Positions 5,874 through 64,000 of a DNA stretch of 64,000 bases are shown in pieces. Every line of letters begins with the position of its first letter. The stretch's first letter is position 1. The notes under the pieces were generated by a model. That model was not told the origin of the DNA and did no database searches. It was given only the letters and a program-made list of their open reading frames with translations. The DNA comes from an uncultured Bacteroidota bacterium (GTDB lineage: Bacteria; Bacteroidota; Ignavibacteria; Ignavibacteriales; Ignavibacteriaceae), in NCBI GenBank assembly GCA_963775245.1, contig CAVZID010000037.1, forward strand, positions 3,175-67,174. Reading direction: 5' to 3'. The translations under genes and the position numbers were made by a program.

Positions 5874-7151
5874 TTAGATACGAATCTGCCAGTATATTTT
5901 CTTTTTTAATTCCTTAATCCAGTTTTGATATAACTCTTGTTTCTTATACTGGTCTGTTAATTTTTTCAGTTCCTGGTAATCTTTATCAAGATTGACTTCA
6001 TGCTGTGGAATTCTTTTTTCCAAATATACTATATGATAACCATAACTTCCTTTACCAAAATCAATCCTTTTTGGAAAACTGATATCACCTTCTTTCATAT
6101 TTGAAACAACATCCAGCATAGTCTTATCCAATTGATTTAGATAAAAGGTCCCAAGTTCTCCGCCAAAAGGCTGGGTGTCTTTGTCCTCACTATACTTTTT
6201 TGCATACTTAGCGAAAGTGCCGTCACCCTTTACAATGCTGTCTCTAATACTAGTTAAAAATTTAATTGCTGTTAAATCCGCCTGCTCACCGGTTTTAATT
6301 TTAATAAGAATATGCCTGGTATGAATTGCTTCACCACGTCTTTCAATCATTTGAATAATATGAAAACCAACGGGAGATTCCACAACATCAGAAATTTGAC
6401 CTGGTTCTAACGCATAAGCAGCTGCTTCAAATTCCGGATAAAATACTCCTCTCTTAACAAAACCAAGATCCCCACCCTGTGCAGCACTTCCTGGATCTTC
6501 GGAATATTTTTTTGCCATAGTTGCAAAGTCGGCACCGGCTTTTATTGAGTCCAAAATTGCCTGCGCTTTTTCTCTGAATTTTTCTTTCATCTCTACAGTA
6601 GCCGTTGGATTTCGGAAAATATGAGCTAATTGTACTTTTTCAGGAATTACACCAAGACTGTCTTTATATTTATTAAAAAAATCTTCGACTTCTCTTCTAG
6701 TAGCATCTACCGTTCCGAACTTTTTTTCTTGCAGCTTCTGAGCCATTAGATTCTTTTTCACATCATCATGCAGTTCTCTTTTCATTTTTTCAATGCTCAT
6801 CCCGTAAACATCTTCAACTTTTTGTTTTGAACCATATTGCTGAATAAACATATTAATTTGGTAATCAATCCTATTTTTAATTTCATCTTCCGATACGGTT
6901 ATTGAATCCAATATAGCTTGAGCATAAACCAGCTTGTCTTCAATCATAGCATTAAGAACATCTATTTTAAATACAGGCGTAACCTTCTCAATCTTTCTTT
7001 GAGCTGCGTAAAGATTTACCTGAAAATCCAGTTCACTTTGCATGATAATTTCATTATCAACAACAGCTACAATTTTATCTAATACTTCTTGAGCATTAAT
7101 TACTTTAAAAGCTGAGAATATTAAAGCAATCAGAATAATTTTAGTCTTCAT
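5874..7151 (-). CDS. SurA-like periplasmic chaperone / peptidyl-prolyl isomerase with two parvulin domains
   Basis: It has a signal peptide, a SurA-N-like region and two rotamase modules (GGDLGFV...GFHIIQ and GGELGTF...GYHIVY). Confidence 0.8.
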   Translation of the reverse strand: MKTKIILIALIFSAFKVINAQEVLDKIVAVVDNEIIMQSELDFQVNLYAAQRKIEKVTPVFKIDVLNAMIEDKLVYAQAILDSITVSEDEIKNRIDYQINMFIQQYGSKQKVEDVYGMSIEKMKRELHDDVKKNLMAQKLQEKKFGTVDATRREVEDFFNKYKDSLGVIPEKVQLAHIFRNPTATVEMKEKFREKAQAILDSIKAGADFATMAKKYSEDPGSAAQGGDLGFVKRGVFYPEFEAAAYALEPGQISDVVESPVGFHIIQMIERRGEAIHTRHILIKIKTGEQADLTAIKFLTSIRDSIVKGDGTFAKYAKKYSEDKDTQPFGGELGTFYLNQLDKTMLDVVSNMKEGDISFPKRIDFGKGSYGYHIVYLEKRIPQHEVNLDKDYQELKKLTDQYKKQELYQNWIKELKKKIYWQIRI

Positions 7152-61878: not shown

Positions 61879-62102
61879 CCTTGAGAAAGCAGATATTAAT
61901 GATTTATATGAATATTAAAATTGGCAAGATAATAATTTTTATCTAATATCATATACGCTCAAGTCCAGTAATAATAAGAATTGACAACTGGATATACAAT
62001 ATAGCGTATTTTAATTTTCAGTGCGTTGATTTATTAACAATATAGCATTAAGCTTTTAGATTTTTGACTGACAATTAAAAGACTGTTATAAAAGGAAAAA
62101 AT

Positions 62103-63302
62103 TTAATAATAATTATTTTTAAAATAATTATTAAGCCTAGTTTTATTTGCCTTACGAATTTTTGAATGCCCTAATTCATTTATGGTAACCTCGAACAATG
62201 TAATTAAATCTGTTCTATCATAAAAGTATTTGCTATGTGTTGTAAAAAAGAATTGATTTATTGTTGCCTTGTCTATTTCATCATTTATAAATTTAATTAA
62301 TTCAAGTTGATATAAAGGGGATAGATTCAATTCTAATTCTTCTATTAAAATTATCTTTGAACTGCTACTAAAGATATTAATTAAAATATAAATAAGTTGT
62401 TGTATTCCAGAACCATAGTTGATAAGCGGATATCGATTCCCTTTACCATTCTTCAGCATTAGCTCATATTTATTATTAAATTTTGTAAATCCAATTTCTG
62501 GCTTTTCGAGAGGGGAATTTAACAAATGTTGTTTTAATATTTCGATACCTTGATCCTTCACTTTAAAAGAACCGATTGATGATAAAAGGCTCATAAAGTT
62601 TTCATATTCATAAAGATAGAGGGAAAATAATGAATCCTTAAACAAATCAGGTTTTAGATAATTACTATAATTTATATCTTCATTATTTGGCATTTCTTTA
62701 GTATTCAAAGAATCATTTGTAGGTATTCTGTTACTATCTAGAAATAAAACGCAATCATTTAATTCTTTTAAGATAAAATAAAATTGTTCTTGTGAAAGAT
62801 TATTATACCCAGGGAAATAATCACCTTCTTGGAATATGACTTTGTTATTCATTTGAACTTCTTTTAACTCTATCCTTGAAGTTGTTTTATTGGTAGCTAC
62901 AAATTGGCCATTAATAAAAATGTTTGAATAATCCTTATTTGGTATTGTAATTTTTTCTTCTTTTAGTTCTTCTATTAAAGGAATTTCATTATTATTTAAC
63001 TCAAGAGTTATATCGAATTCAATTGGAGAGTCAATATTATTATTAAAAAAAATATACGGAAGATTACTAACTTCCCCTTCCCAGAAATTAGTTAGGTTCG
63101 TAACCTGTCTCCGATTCTCTTCCGAATTTACTTTCACTTGTTGTCCATAAGTTTTAGACTGGAATACTAGACTGAGAAACTTTAGCATATTTGATTTTCC
63201 GCTATTATTAAGACCAAATATCATATTAATATTTCCAAATTTAGAAGCTGGGAAATCGTACAAGCTTTTAAAATTTTTAATATAAAAAGATTTTATTTTC
63301 AT
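62103..63302 (-). CDS. ABC/SMC-like AAA ATPase (AAA_15/AAA_21-type, as found in many anti-phage systems)
   Basis: The N-terminus IKNFKSLYD...NMIFGLNNSGKSNMLKFL is a Walker A. There is a signature-like GSGIQQLI, a Walker B ILIEELELNLSP and a TTHS H-loop. Confidence 0.75.
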   Translation of the reverse strand: MKIKSFYIKNFKSLYDFPASKFGNINMIFGLNNSGKSNMLKFLSLVFQSKTYGQQVKVNSEENRRQVTNLTNFWEGEVSNLPYIFFNNNIDSPIEFDITLELNNNEIPLIEELKEEKITIPNKDYSNIFINGQFVATNKTTSRIELKEVQMNNKVIFQEGDYFPGYNNLSQEQFYFILKELNDCVLFLDSNRIPTNDSLNTKEMPNNEDINYSNYLKPDLFKDSLFSLYLYEYENFMSLLSSIGSFKVKDQGIEILKQHLLNSPLEKPEIGFTKFNNKYELMLKNGKGNRYPLINYGSGIQQLIYILINIFSSSSKIILIEELELNLSPLYQLELIKFINDEIDKATINQFFFTTHSKYFYDRTDLITLFEVTINELGHSKIRKANKTRLNNYFKNNYY

Positions 63303-63304
63303 TT

Positions 63305-64000
63305 TTAACCTATGTAATCTTTAAATGTATTTAAAATATCTTCATTTATTTTACTAAATGATTGACGATCTATAATATGTTTTTCTAGATTCAATGTTAA
63401 AATAAGATGAAACCTAAAAAATACATCAGTGTATTTTTTACCTTTAAATAAAGGATAGTTTTTATTTATTACAATTTTTTTGTTTCTTATTATTAAAGCC
63501 GGGAATTCACTATTTTCATACTCCCAGCTATCTAATTCAAGGTTATAATTAATCTTGCCAAAATCTAATTTGCGCTGAAACTGTTCATCATCTTTAGAAA
63601 TTACAATTGTTTTATTTTCTTTGTTTACCTGCACCGGTTCTTCATTTTTATTTAGCTCTCTTCTTATTACTTTAAATCCTCTATCTTGAAGCTTGTTTAT
63701 TTTTTGTAACGTATTTTTTGAATCAATTGATTTCAAATCTTTAAGTCGGTCAACTTGCTTTACTTCCTTAGAAAAAGTATTTATATCATAAGTTTGAGTT
63801 GCAAGGTTGACAAGTCTGTTTCTAAAATATTCTTTAAGTTTTTCATAATCCTCATCATAATTAAATTTATCTCGGTCTAGTGAAATTAAATCATTTAAGC
63901 CTTCAATAATATTTATATCACCAGTAAGATGGGTTAAACTTGCTCGTGTACCCGATTCTGTTCCTGCACCAAATGTATCTCTTTGACCAACACCAACATT
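63305..64000 (-). CDS. C-terminal part (>=231 codons) of an unknown protein truncated by the window edge and operonic with the AAA ATPase
   Basis: I translated the frame by hand and it is open from 64000 (NVGVGQRDTFGAGTESGTRASL...) to the stop at 63305. The track start at 63736 is an internal TTG. The gap to the downstream gene is 2 nt. Confidence 0.5.
   Translation of the reverse strand, partial: NVGVGQRDTFGAGTESGTRASLTHLTGDINIIEGLNDLISLDRDKFNYDEDYEKLKEYFRNRLVNLATQTYDINTFSKEVKQVDRLKDLKSIDSKNTLQKINKLQDRGFKVIRRELNKNEEPVQVNKENKTIVISKDDEQFQRKLDFGKINYNLELDSWEYENSEFPALIIRNKKIVINKNYPLFKGKKYTDVFFRFHLILTLNLEKHIIDRQSFSKINEDILNTFKDYIG

What the first reader, a model, noticed from the sequence alone, without database searches (positions are those of the whole stretch)
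62103..64000. AT-rich two-gene locus: ABC/AAA_15-21-type ATPase plus an unknown upstream partner cut by the window edge (candidate defence system)
Downstream of pyk the composition drops to clearly lower GC. Two minus-strand genes there are separated by 2 nt. The distal gene (399 aa) has Walker A GLNNSGKSN, a signature-like GSGIQQLI, Walker B ILIEELE and TTHS. This is the ATPase type that forms the sensor or motor of Septu, Gabija, PARIS, AbiL and similar anti-phage systems. However, no HNH, Toprim/OLD or DUF4435 partner follows it before pyk. The proximal gene is open to the window edge, with at least 231 codons. Its visible part fits nothing I can name with confidence. The segment GVGQRDTFGAGTESG is faintly reminiscent of the GHKL/MORC ATP-lid (GxFGxGxxS), but that is weak. 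An ATPase of this class paired with an unrecognised partner is the kind of locus from which new defence systems have been described.
Basis: partly seen in the sequence, partly recalled or inferred. Interest (0 to 1): 0.6.

Follow-up and report, generated by a model that had tools for sequence, protein, structure and literature searches.

The report
Methylase, clamp ATPase, ABC ATPase cassette
The two genes at the window edge belong to a horizontally acquired three-gene cassette (an adenine DNA methylase, an Hsp90/MORC-like clamp ATPase and an ABC ATPase) that recurs unchanged in dozens of uncultured bacteria, looks like a restriction-modification-type immune system with no recognisable DNA-cutting enzyme, and is not described in any library or paper I could search.

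Summary
A low-GC island after pyk holds a 399-aa AAA_15/21 ABC ATPase, and 2 nt upstream lies a gene cut by the window edge. Extending the contig shows three genes, not two. The cut gene encodes a 521-aa GHKL ATPase: an Hsp90/MORC-like ATPase plus transducer, a long helix and a 147-aa C-terminal domain with no known relative. A D12-class N6-adenine DNA methyltransferase overlaps its start (ATGA).

In 45 loci the order MTase-GHKL-ABC holds wherever flanks exist. Two loci carry an unrelated beta-class MTase after the ABC gene instead. No fourth gene recurs. GHKL and ABC co-evolve tightly (r = 0.92), and all catalytic motifs are conserved. Three close relatives lack the cassette at this site, and only 1 of 401 genomes sampled in the phylum has it.

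It meets the membership criteria of none of these: paraMORC3/HgiDII restriction enzymes, PARIS, Septu, Gabija, AbiL, Menshen, MADS, Mza or Tiamat. No nuclease domain is detectable in any of the three proteins.

Best reading: a methylation-gated, R-M-like defence or selfish module whose effector is the ABC-GHKL ATPase pair. How it acts on DNA is inferred, not shown.

The parts
62103..63302 (-). Gene 3 of the cassette: a 399-aa OLD-type ABC ATPase (AAA_15/AAA_21) with no fused nuclease. Key residues are Walker A G30-x4-G35-K36-S37, signature-like G297-S-G299..Q302, Walker B/catalytic E321-E322 and H-loop H356.
   Evidence: AAA_15 4e-17 covering residues 1-360 against profile positions 1-373 of 374. 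(PDC-M38A 2.6e-21, AriA 1.1e-19, AbiLi 3.5e-19, NsnB 6.4e-19); motifs conserved at 90% or more in 42 homologues.
63305..64000 (-). The visible C-terminal 231 codons of gene 2. The complete gene is 521 aa and runs beyond the window to window-equivalent 64870 (contig C37:66479-68044). Architecture: GHKL ATPase (HATPase_c_3, residues 28-137, outside the window), a transducer-like middle domain to about 335, a long helix at 340-371, and an orphan C-terminal domain at 375-521.
64000..64000 (-). Marker at the window edge for gene 1, which lies wholly outside the window (window-equivalent 64867-65949; contig C37:68041-69123; L003 4041-5123). It is a 360-aa D12-class (alpha-group) N6-adenine DNA methyltransferase with motif I F43-G-G45 and motif IV D231-P-P-Y234. 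Its stop overlaps the GHKL start (ATGA).
   Evidence: PF02086 1.9e-15; PADLOC MTase_II 5.9e-54.
61879..64000 (.). The part of the low-GC inserted island (GC 0.22-0.30) that lies inside the window. The island runs from the pyk stop to the start of the radical-SAM gene (window-equivalent 61879-66114). Same-genus relatives have no island here; a 256-aa gene sits at this position instead.
61883..61918 (+). A 36-nt remnant (GAGAAAGCAGATATTAATGATTTATATGAATATTAA) of the 3' end of the 256-aa gene that lies between pyk and the radical-SAM gene in relatives. It marks a deletion that accompanied or followed acquisition of the cassette.
   Evidence: compare the gene ends in G401 and G406, GATAAAGCAGATATAAATGATCTGTATGAATAA.
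61953..62010 (+). Hairpin followed by a U-rich tail between the convergent pyk and ABC genes. It is a probable terminator.
   Evidence: minimum free energy -12.8 kcal/mol, z = -2.6. Weak evidence.

Best explanation
The locus is a self-contained, horizontally mobile three-gene system: a D12 N6-adenine DNA methyltransferase, an Hsp90/MORC-like GHKL clamp ATPase with an orphan C-terminal domain, and an OLD-type ABC ATPase. I read it as a methylation-gated, restriction-modification-like defence (or selfish addiction) module. Shown: the three genes are translationally packed and always occur together. The methyltransferase can be replaced by an unrelated DNA methyltransferase. All three enzymes keep intact catalytic motifs. 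GHKL and ABC co-evolve. The cassette is an insertion that close relatives lack. Inferred: the MTase marks the host's own DNA with m6A at its recognition sites. The ABC ATPase (the fastest-evolving component) and the GHKL dimer form a complex that engages DNA lacking the mark. This would resemble the way the ABC ATPase MutS recruits the GHKL ATPase MutL in Dam-directed mismatch repair, or the way OLD-type ABC ATPases hold and regulate a partner effector in Septu, PARIS, Menshen and MADS. The GHKL protein would then close on the DNA in an ATP-dependent way. The final step is unknown. My rough split is 35% nuclease-free blocking or entrapment of unmethylated DNA, 30% cleavage by an unrecognised active site in the orphan C-terminal domain, 15% recruitment of a host nuclease, and the remainder not defence.
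For: Three tightly coupled genes. Domain assignments. The AF2 model (pLDDT 81.9) matches MORC3, MORC2, MORC4 and Hsp90/TRAP1 over the GHKL and middle domains at E about 1e-12 to 1e-13. In 45 loci, every locus with upstream sequence has a DNA MTase: 36 with D12 upstream, and 2 (L007, L136) with a beta-class PF01555 MTase downstream. Every locus with downstream sequence has the ABC gene. No fourth gene recurs. Distance-matrix correlations are GHKL-ABC r = 0.92 and MTase with either about 0.72-0.74, with Mantel 0 of 2000. Catalytic motifs are conserved at 90% or more. The cassette is absent at the syntenic site in G401, G406 and G412 and present in 1 of 401 genomes of the phylum. It has low GC. 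Some neighbours are AbiE, type I/IIG/IV restriction genes or IS elements. For context, paraMORC/MORC ATPases were predicted to be R-M components (PMC2292703), and OLD-type ABC ATPases regulate bound effectors (PMC12065111, PMC13662399).
Against: No nuclease or other effector domain is recognisable in any of the three proteins, so the restriction step is entirely inferred. No member of the family has been tested experimentally. Many cassettes sit among housekeeping genes rather than in clear defence islands. None was found on phage or plasmid records or in viral contigs. The interaction between GHKL and ABC rests on co-occurrence and co-evolution only. The methylation target and specificity are unknown.
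Confidence: 0.62

Rival explanations
1. This is an ordinary type II (or ATP-dependent type II-like) R-M system. The GHKL protein is itself the restriction endonuclease, as in the GHKL-containing HgiDII/BbrUII (paraMORC3) enzymes, with a cryptic nuclease site in its orphan C-terminal domain. The ABC ATPase is an accessory motor.
For: The nearest named relatives of the GHKL domain are restriction enzymes: NCBIfam BbrUII/HgiDII 1.9e-21, PADLOC REase_II 1.7e-15, and 35% identity to phage 'ParaMORC3' over residues 10-121. The orphan domain sits where paraMORC3, MutL and Tiamat carry their nucleases (PMC2292703; bioRxiv 10.64898/2026.09.30.754977). A cognate MTase is always present.
Against: Similarity stops at residue ~130 (76 bits against a cut-off of 550). 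The C-terminal domain has no Pfam, PDB-sequence or fold match, with best Foldseek E of 0.47 (PDB) and 0.08 (BFVD). Its invariant polar residues are only N469 and D482. H488 is not invariant, being replaced by Q or N in some members. That is too few residues for the usual metal-dependent nuclease sites. The obligate, tightly co-evolving ABC partner is not a feature of known type II enzymes.
Confidence: 0.2
2. This is an abortive-infection or PARIS/AbiL-like sensor-effector pair (ABC plus GHKL) triggered by a phage protein. The methyltransferase would be only a frequent neighbour, or would serve an unrelated epigenetic role.
For: The ABC ATPase scores best against the sensors of such systems: AriA, AbiLi, NsnB, HEC-01A and PDC-M38A. 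It is the most divergent of the three proteins (mean pairwise identity 37%), as expected for a component in an arms race.
Against: An MTase is present in 38 of 38 loci with enough sequence, is translationally coupled (ATGA overlap), and is replaced by a different DNA MTase in the two loci where the D12 enzyme is missing. That pattern indicates functional necessity, not neighbourhood. None of the partner effectors (AriB, AbiLii, PtuB, NsnA, NsnC) is present.
Confidence: 0.08
3. This is not an immune system. It would be a mobile methyl-directed DNA repair, recombination or chromosome-organisation module: a MutS/MutL/Dam-like trio that acts on host DNA.
For: The composition formally parallels Dam (D12 MTase), MutL (GHKL) and MutS (ABC-class ATPase). 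Iyer et al. 2008 (PMC2292703) note that some paraMORCs may have been recruited to repair. Many cassettes lie among housekeeping genes.
Against: The distribution is extremely sparse and patchy (1 of 401 genomes in the phylum). The cassette is absent from congeners, has anomalous GC and has different flanks in nearly every locus. These are properties of selfish or defence cargo, not of a housekeeping repair pathway. The ABC protein is of the OLD/AAA_15 type, not MutS.
Confidence: 0.07

Closest known systems
paraMORC3 / BbrUII-HgiDII family GHKL restriction enzymes (Iyer, Abhiman & Aravind 2008, PMC2292703; NCBIfam NF050001)
   Same: Both have an N-terminal HATPase_c_3 GHKL domain (35% identity over about 115 residues to phage PhiR44_1 'ParaMORC3'), followed by a transducer-type middle domain and a C-terminal extension. 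Both are paired with a DNA methyltransferase, are common in Bacteroidota and are laterally mobile.
   Different: There is no RE-fold (E-D-ExK) nuclease domain; an orphan 147-aa domain takes its place. The score against NF050001 is 76 bits with a cut-off of 550, whereas the phage protein scores 751. The MTase here is N6-adenine D12, whereas the phage 'ParaMORC3' is paired with a gene annotated Dcm. There is an obligate OLD-type ABC ATPase partner.
OLD-type ABC ATPase defence systems: PARIS (AriA/AriB), Septu (PtuA/PtuB), Gabija (GajA), AbiL, Menshen (NsnABC), MADS MAD3-MAD4
   Same: Gene 3 is an AAA_15/AAA_21 ABC ATPase of the same class, with E-values of 1e-12 to 1e-21 against their PADLOC models. 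In those systems the ATPase oligomer binds and regulates a partner protein encoded next to it (PMC12065111, PMC13662399).
   Different: The partner here is a GHKL ATPase, not a Toprim, DUF4435, HNH or inPIN effector. No nuclease is present. A DNA methyltransferase is an integral third component. MADS also has an MTase, but it has eight genes and the MAD4 nuclease.
Prokaryotic MORC/paraMORC R-M-like operons in general, and eukaryotic MORC DNA clamps
   Same: The fold of residues 1 to about 335 matches the MORC2, MORC3 and MORC4 ATPase modules. Both are associated with DNA methylation, and both are proposed to act through ATP-driven dimerisation around DNA.
   Different: There is no SFII helicase and no recognisable nuclease, the two partner types that paper (PMC2292703) emphasises. 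At the sequence level the ATPase is closer to Hsp90/HtpG than to MutL or MORC. The transducer loop carries an Hsp90-like Arg (V-S-R333-D) rather than the Lys that, from my own knowledge, MORC and MutL use.
Dam-MutS-MutL methyl-directed mismatch repair (analogy only)
   Same: Both combine a D12 adenine methylase, an ABC-class DNA-sensing ATPase and a GHKL matchmaker or clamp ATPase.
   Different: There is no orthology: the ABC is OLD/AAA_15-type, not MutS, and the GHKL is not MutL (best MutL model 33 bits against a cut-off of 180). The cassette is mobile, rare cargo rather than a core pathway.

Membership tests
paraMORC3 / BbrUII-HgiDII restriction enzyme family | Whole-protein match to NCBIfam NF050001 at or above its cut-off (550 bits) | tested here: not met
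   76.3 bits, covering residues 11-133 only. The positive control, phage 'ParaMORC3', scores 751 bits over its full length.
paraMORC3 / BbrUII-HgiDII restriction enzyme family | C-terminal RE-fold (E-D-ExK) endonuclease domain | tested here: not met
   The C-terminal domain has no Pfam or PDB sequence hit and no fold hit. No conserved E-D-ExK set appears in the alignments.
GHKL (GHL) ATPase superfamily | Bergerat-fold motifs I-IV (E/N, DxGxG, G-rich lid, T) plus a transducer domain | tested here: met
   PF13589 at 6.2e-22. E34, N38, D62, G64, G66, G97-G102 and T166 are invariant in 24 sequences. The fold matches MORC and Hsp90 N-terminal plus middle domains.
Hsp90/HtpG family | Whole-protein match to HtpG/Hsp90 models, with the Hsp90 middle and C-terminal dimerisation domains | tested here: not met
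   HtpG NF003555 scores 40.5 bits against a cut-off of 371, over the N-domain only. PDB profile hits are restricted to residues ~16-135. The C-terminal domain is unrelated.
Prokaryotic MORC operons (Iyer et al. 2008) | Association with an SFII helicase and/or nuclease gene | tested here: not met
   No helicase or nuclease recurs next to the trio in 45 loci.
PARIS (AriA/AriB) | AriB (DUF4435/Toprim) effector next to the AriA ABC ATPase | tested here: not met
   There is an AriA-like hit at 1.1e-19, but the adjacent genes are GHKL and MTase, which give no AriB hit.
Septu (PtuA/PtuB) | HNH nuclease PtuB partner | tested here: not met
   No HNH gene is in the cassette.
Gabija GajA / OLD family nucleases | Toprim nuclease domain fused to the ABC ATPase | tested here: not met
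   The 399-aa protein is fully covered by AAA_15 (residues 1-360). GajA and Old models match only the ATPase segments.
AbiL (AbiLi/AbiLii) | AbiLii partner gene | tested here: not met
   There is an AbiLi-like hit at 3.5e-19, but no AbiLii hit among the partners.
Menshen (NsnA/NsnB/NsnC) | DUF262 NsnA, an NsnB with a C-terminal DUF3696, and an NsnC effector | tested here: not met
   There is an NsnB-like hit at 6.4e-19. No DUF3696 or DUF262 appears in Pfam scans. Composition per PMC12065111.
MADS | Eight-gene system including the MAD3 ATPase-MAD4 OLD-type nuclease module | tested here: not met
   Only weak mad3 (2.2e-10) and mad2 (1.9e-7) hits. The cassette has three genes and no MAD4-like nuclease. 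Composition per PMC13662399.
PADLOC candidate PDC-M38 | PDC-M38A together with its defined partner gene(s) | not testable with these tools
   PDC-M38A is the best PADLOC hit for the ABC protein (74.7 bits). The GHKL and MTase proteins hit no PDC-M38 model. The composition of PDC-M38 could not be found.
Mza and Tiamat (GHKL-containing defence systems) | Whole-protein match to MzaB or TmtA | tested here: not met
   MzaB scores 24 bits against a cut-off of 850. There is no TmtA hit at E <= 0.1.
Type II restriction-modification system | Cognate DNA MTase plus a recognisable restriction endonuclease | tested here: inconclusive
   The MTase feature is met (PF02086; MTase_II 5.9e-54). No endonuclease domain was found, though a cryptic one cannot be excluded.

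The most novel reading that the evidence does not exclude
The cassette is a nuclease-free restriction system. An OLD-type ABC ATPase and an Hsp90/MORC-like GHKL clamp would form a mobile analogue of MutS-MutL. They would read the absence of Dam-type m6A marks and entrap or block unmethylated invading DNA rather than cutting it. That would be a bacterial counterpart of eukaryotic MORC-mediated silencing. The sister operon, in which two unknown proteins replace the ABC, would then show a modular 'GHKL plus MTase core with an exchangeable partner' architecture.
Probability: 0.3. Interest if true: 0.85.

Novelty: new variant of a known kind. Interest (0 to 1): 0.66.

Why it matters
GHKL (MORC/paraMORC) ATPases were predicted to be components of restriction-modification systems in 2008, yet very few have been tested. 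OLD-type ABC ATPases are now known as regulators of nuclease effectors in several defence systems. This cassette joins the two ATPase classes with a methylase in a minimal three-gene unit that has no recognisable nuclease. If it defends, two outcomes are possible. It may reveal a new nuclease fold in the orphan C-terminal domain. Or it may be a compact, tractable model for nuclease-free, methylation-guided DNA silencing by a MORC-like clamp, which bears on the origin of eukaryotic MORC function. A cultured Maribacter isolate carries a homologue, so the hypothesis can be tested directly.

Tried and rejected
- **Genome-collection scan with the full GHKL alignment.** The patterns fell in the generic GHKL N-domain. 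79 of the 80 loci were unrelated GHKL proteins and only L007 was useful. I redid the search with family-specific patterns in metagenomes.
- **Viral contigs, phage records and plasmid records.** No full-length relatives, only N-domain hits.
- **Promoter and terminator consensus scan.** No better than shuffles in this AT-rich DNA.
- **Flanking direct or inverted repeats, integrase or transposase at the island borders.** None beyond AT-rich chance matches.
- **C-terminal domain as a nuclease, HEPN domain or zincin.** No significant match. The weak Foldseek hits recur on minimal zincin-like folds (selecase, IrrE-N, SprT) at E of 0.08 or more and TM of 0.33 or less, and the family lacks HExxH. I rejected this as a functional assignment.
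- **Split ABC ATPase as the explanation for the two small genes of the sister operon.** No recorded AAA_15/AAA_21 hit, no Pfam, PADLOC or PDB hit, and no P-loop motif that I could see in the sequences. This is negative evidence only; I did not compare them directly with the ABC protein.
- **Krishnan et al. 2020 classification of ABC ATPases.** Not held in the library.
- **'PDC-M38' in the literature.** Not found in any paper.
- **Cluster look-up for host names.** Returned none.
- **P0100 (Daejeonella) context look-up.** Not on record.
Full report
**Observation.** The ORF listing gives a minus-strand ORF of 399 aa at 62103-63302 with the quoted Walker A, signature-like, Walker B and H-loop strings. 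It also gives a second minus-strand ORF at 63305-64000 that is open at the window edge (231 codons). The two are 2 nt apart. GC drops to 0.22-0.29 here, against 0.32-0.41 in the neighbouring Lon-like and pyk genes. Pfam assigns the 399-aa protein to AAA_15 (4e-17, residues 1-360 against profile positions 1-373 of 374) and AAA_21 (1.7e-15). PADLOC's best hits are ABC ATPase subunits of defence systems: PDC-M38A 2.6e-21, AriA 1.1e-19, AbiLi 3.5e-19, NsnB 6.4e-19, and weaker GajA, Old and mad3. The visible 231-aa fragment has no significant family hit.

**Extension beyond the window.** The window is contig C37:3175-67174 of a 5.9-Mb, 44-contig genome. I fetched C37:64001-84000 as L003 (window coordinate = L003 coordinate + 60826). 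The operon has three genes, not two.
- **Methyltransferase.** A 360-aa gene (L003 4041-5123, minus strand) is a D12-class N6-adenine DNA methyltransferase: PF02086 at 1.9e-15 and PADLOC MTase_II at 5.9e-54, with motif I FGG and motif IV DPPY.
- **GHKL protein.** Its stop overlaps (ATGA) the start of the 521-aa full-length form of the cut gene. That protein carries an N-terminal HATPase_c_3 GHKL domain at residues 28-137 (6.2e-22).
- **ABC gene.** It follows after 2 nt.

The lid is G97-Q-F-G-V-G-F103, beyond the window edge. The quoted segment belongs to a separate, nearly invariant family motif, R288-N-x-N-x-G-V-G...F300.

**The GHKL protein.** A search of 5.8 billion proteins gave 260 hits at E of 0.001 or below. 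The 120 listed are near-full-length relatives (455-542 aa, 41-79% identity). Where they are named at all, they are named only 'ATP-binding protein', and the named organisms are Bacteroidota: Chitinophagaceae, Maribacter, Daejeonella and Bacteroidales.
- **Fold.** An AlphaFold2 model built on 24 homologues (mean pLDDT 81.9) matches the ATPase modules of MORC3, MORC2 and MORC4, and Hsp90/TRAP1/HtpG N-terminal plus middle domains, at Foldseek E of about 1e-12 to 1e-13.
- **Sequence.** At the sequence level only residues ~16-135 find solved relatives, with Hsp90-family proteins ahead of MutL/PMS2.
- **Catalytic loop.** The conserved loop G317-E...G324-x-N326...V-S-R333-D resembles the Hsp90 middle-domain catalytic loop (LPLNISRE). 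This is my reading of the alignment, not a tool result.
- **C-terminal domain.** After a long helix (340-371) comes a 147-residue alpha/beta domain. Modelled alone it is confident (pLDDT 88.3). It has no significant neighbour in the PDB (best E 0.47, TM about 0.2) or in BFVD (best E 0.08), and no Pfam or PDB sequence match in any of 20 members.
- **Distribution of that domain.** A profile of it, searched against 1.84 billion representative proteins, finds only 89 clusters. Apart from two long repetitive proteins that match many times over a short stretch and look spurious, they are proteins of about 440-565 aa carrying the domain at their C-terminus, or shorter ones that I take to be fragments.
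- **Conserved residues.** The invariant residues are W449, A458, N469, Y472, P473, F475 and D482, mostly hydrophobic. It is an orphan domain and not a recognisable nuclease.

**The cassette is a unit.** I examined 45 loci: the window's own, six reached through identical-protein look-ups, L007, and 38 metagenome contigs found with family-specific patterns.
- **Gene order.** A tally by BLAST shows D12 MTase, then GHKL, then ABC, in that order and tightly packed, in all 36 loci where the upstream flank exists and the D12 gene is present. Every locus with downstream sequence has the ABC gene.
- **MTase displacement.** Two loci (L007, L136) lack the D12 enzyme. They carry a 530-aa beta-class N6_N4 DNA methyltransferase (PF01555, 2e-15; DPPH motif) immediately after the ABC gene. 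These two loci are each other's nearest relatives, so this was one displacement event. Replacement of one DNA methylase by an unrelated one argues strongly that DNA methylation is essential to the system.
- **No fourth gene.** The largest cluster of neighbouring ORFs spans only 3 loci.
- **Co-evolution.** Pairwise-identity matrices correlate at r = 0.92 for GHKL against ABC, and at 0.72-0.74 for either against the MTase (Mantel 0 of 2000). ABC is the most divergent (mean identity 37%, against 47% for GHKL and about 54% for the MTase).
- **Motifs.** Catalytic motifs of all three enzymes are conserved at 90% or more. All three are therefore likely to be active enzymes.

**Acquisition.** In two same-genus genomes and one same-family genome, pyk is followed by a 256-aa gene and then the radical-SAM gene, with no cassette. 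In the window's genome that 256-aa gene is deleted except for its last ~36 nt (window 61883-61918). The 3.85-kb cassette lies between that remnant and the radical-SAM gene.
- A profile search of 401 genomes spread over the phylum finds the family only in the window's own genome.
- I found no integrase, transposase or flanking repeats.
- Elsewhere the cassette has different flanks almost every time. Some are defence or mobile genes: AbiEii/AbiEi, type I HsdR, an MmeI-type IIG enzyme, type IV enzymes, a BglII-like gene, and IS3 and IS200 transposases. Many are ordinary housekeeping genes.
- No full-length relative occurs in phage, plasmid or viral-contig collections.

**Comparison with known systems.** The GHKL domain's closest named relatives are the GHKL-containing restriction enzymes.
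- **paraMORC3 / HgiDII.** The phage PhiR44_1 protein annotated 'ParaMORC3' (next to a gene annotated Dcm) is a full-length member of NCBIfam BbrUII/HgiDII, scoring 751 bits against a cut-off of 550. Our protein scores 76 bits, over the first ~130 residues only. It is therefore related to that family but is not a member. It lacks the RE-fold nuclease that defines paraMORC3 (PMC2292703).
- **MORC/paraMORC operons.** The partners that paper emphasises are SFII helicases, nucleases and mostly cytosine methylases. Its text names an ABC ATPase once, and that is MutS.
- **OLD-type ABC systems.** On the ABC side, PARIS, Septu, Gabija, AbiL, Menshen and MADS all pair this ATPase class with a nuclease or toxin partner (PMC12065111, PMC13662399). 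None of those partners is present here.
- **Other GHKL systems.** Mza and Tiamat models do not match beyond noise.
- **Literature.** Full-text searches found no paper combining HATPase_c_3 with AAA_15, and none mentioning PDC-M38. The most relevant classification paper (Krishnan et al. 2020) is not in the library, so prior computational mention cannot be excluded.
- **Earlier notes of this scan.** They describe other methylase-linked GHKL cassettes without recognisable nucleases, with C5 methylases and different partners. None shares sequence with this one. They are parallels, not evidence.

**Mechanism.**
- **Shown.** An obligatory trio of active-looking enzymes, an interchangeable DNA methylase, GHKL-ABC co-evolution, and mobile, rare cargo behaviour.
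- **Inferred.** The MTase marks self DNA with m6A. The ABC ATPase and the GHKL dimer form a complex that acts on unmarked DNA. This would resemble OLD-type ABC ATPases holding and regulating a partner, or MutS (ABC class) recruiting MutL (GHKL) in Dam-directed mismatch repair. The GHKL protein would close around the DNA on ATP binding, as MORC and Hsp90-class proteins dimerise.
- **Unknown.** What happens next. All three proteins are fully accounted for by known ATPase or MTase folds, apart from the orphan C-terminal domain. Any intrinsic nuclease would have to be there, where paraMORC3, MutL and Tiamat carry theirs, but that domain has very few conserved polar residues. The alternatives are a nuclease-free block (as is thought, from my own knowledge, for BREX) or recruitment of a host nuclease.

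**A sister system.** The most divergent proteins that carry the same C-terminal domain (556-559 aa) sit in a different operon: GHKL, then an unknown gene of 244-248 aa, then an unknown gene of 245-268 aa, then a D12 MTase of the same type (TRYQGSKRK motif), with no ABC ATPase. The two small proteins are conserved between loci (37% and 34% identity). They have no Pfam, PADLOC or PDB match. This suggests a constant core of GHKL plus MTase with an exchangeable partner module.

**Limits.** GHKL-ABC complex formation is not modelled. The defence-island association is only a tally, not an enrichment statistic. The ABC family was not surveyed from its own side.

**Verdict.** This is a real, conserved and apparently undescribed three-gene, methylase-linked system that combines two ATPase classes and has no recognisable nuclease. 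I file it as a new variant of the R-M-like GHKL/paraMORC and OLD-ABC defence themes, not as a member of any named system.

Noticed in passing
L143:172-3783, L144:1680-5975, L145:480-4775: A sister operon of the same GHKL family (same orphan C-terminal domain) has GHKL (556-559 aa), then an unknown gene of 244-248 aa, then an unknown gene of 245-268 aa, then a D12 MTase, with no ABC ATPase. The two small proteins are conserved between loci (37% and 34% identity) but match nothing in Pfam, PADLOC or PDB sequences. Conserved strings are 'VNLDF.SQ.P' in the first and 'LYKYA..CLRS.LE.T.RLIYFS' and 'LS.Y.H' in the second.
   Followed up: partly
L007:5980-10433 and L136:5206-9702: A variant cassette in which the upstream D12 MTase is absent and a 530-aa beta-class N6_N4 DNA methyltransferase (PF01555) follows the ABC gene. 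In L007 an intact MmeI-type IIG restriction-modification enzyme (933 aa) lies immediately upstream.
   Followed up: partly
L003:5289-6349 (window-equivalent 66115-67175, beyond the window end): The radical-SAM gene next to the island reads as two ORFs in different frames (275 aa and 101 aa). The orthologue in the same-genus genome G401 is one intact 342-aa ORF. This is either a frameshift (pseudogene) or an assembly error near L003 ~6050-6110.
   Followed up: partly
window 61883-61918 (L003 1057-1092); L098:1746-2516: A 256-aa gene present between pyk and the radical-SAM gene in three relatives has been deleted here except for its last ~36 nt. By eye it looks like a creatininase-family amidohydrolase (HGGN and GELETS strings). 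I did not test that.
   Followed up: partly
L101:10056-10832: Next to the cassette in an NCBI genome (GCA_024508725.1) lie a BglII-like endonuclease gene (PF09195) and a small HTH gene on the opposite strand, with no second MTase gene called among their neighbours. This could be a remnant R-M system, or one that uses the cassette's methylase.
   Followed up: no
L004, L102, L139 (downstream of the cassette): Three cassettes share the same downstream neighbour, a DUF4251 gene on the opposite strand. This suggests either a common insertion site or vertical inheritance within one flavobacterial lineage.
   Followed up: no
window 61953-62010: A hairpin with a U-rich tail lies between the convergent pyk and ABC genes (minimum free energy -12.8 kcal/mol, z = -2.6). 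The consensus terminator scan did not find it.
   Followed up: partly
L104 (phage PhiR44_1, PV340563.1:7111-9069): The gene annotated 'ParaMORC3' in a phage whose neighbouring genes are annotated GpO, GpP, GpQ and GpA, next to a gene annotated Dcm, is a full-length member of the NCBIfam BbrUII/HgiDII restriction-enzyme family (751 bits). The 'paraMORC3' of Iyer et al. 2008 and these named restriction enzymes therefore appear to be the same family.
   Followed up: partly
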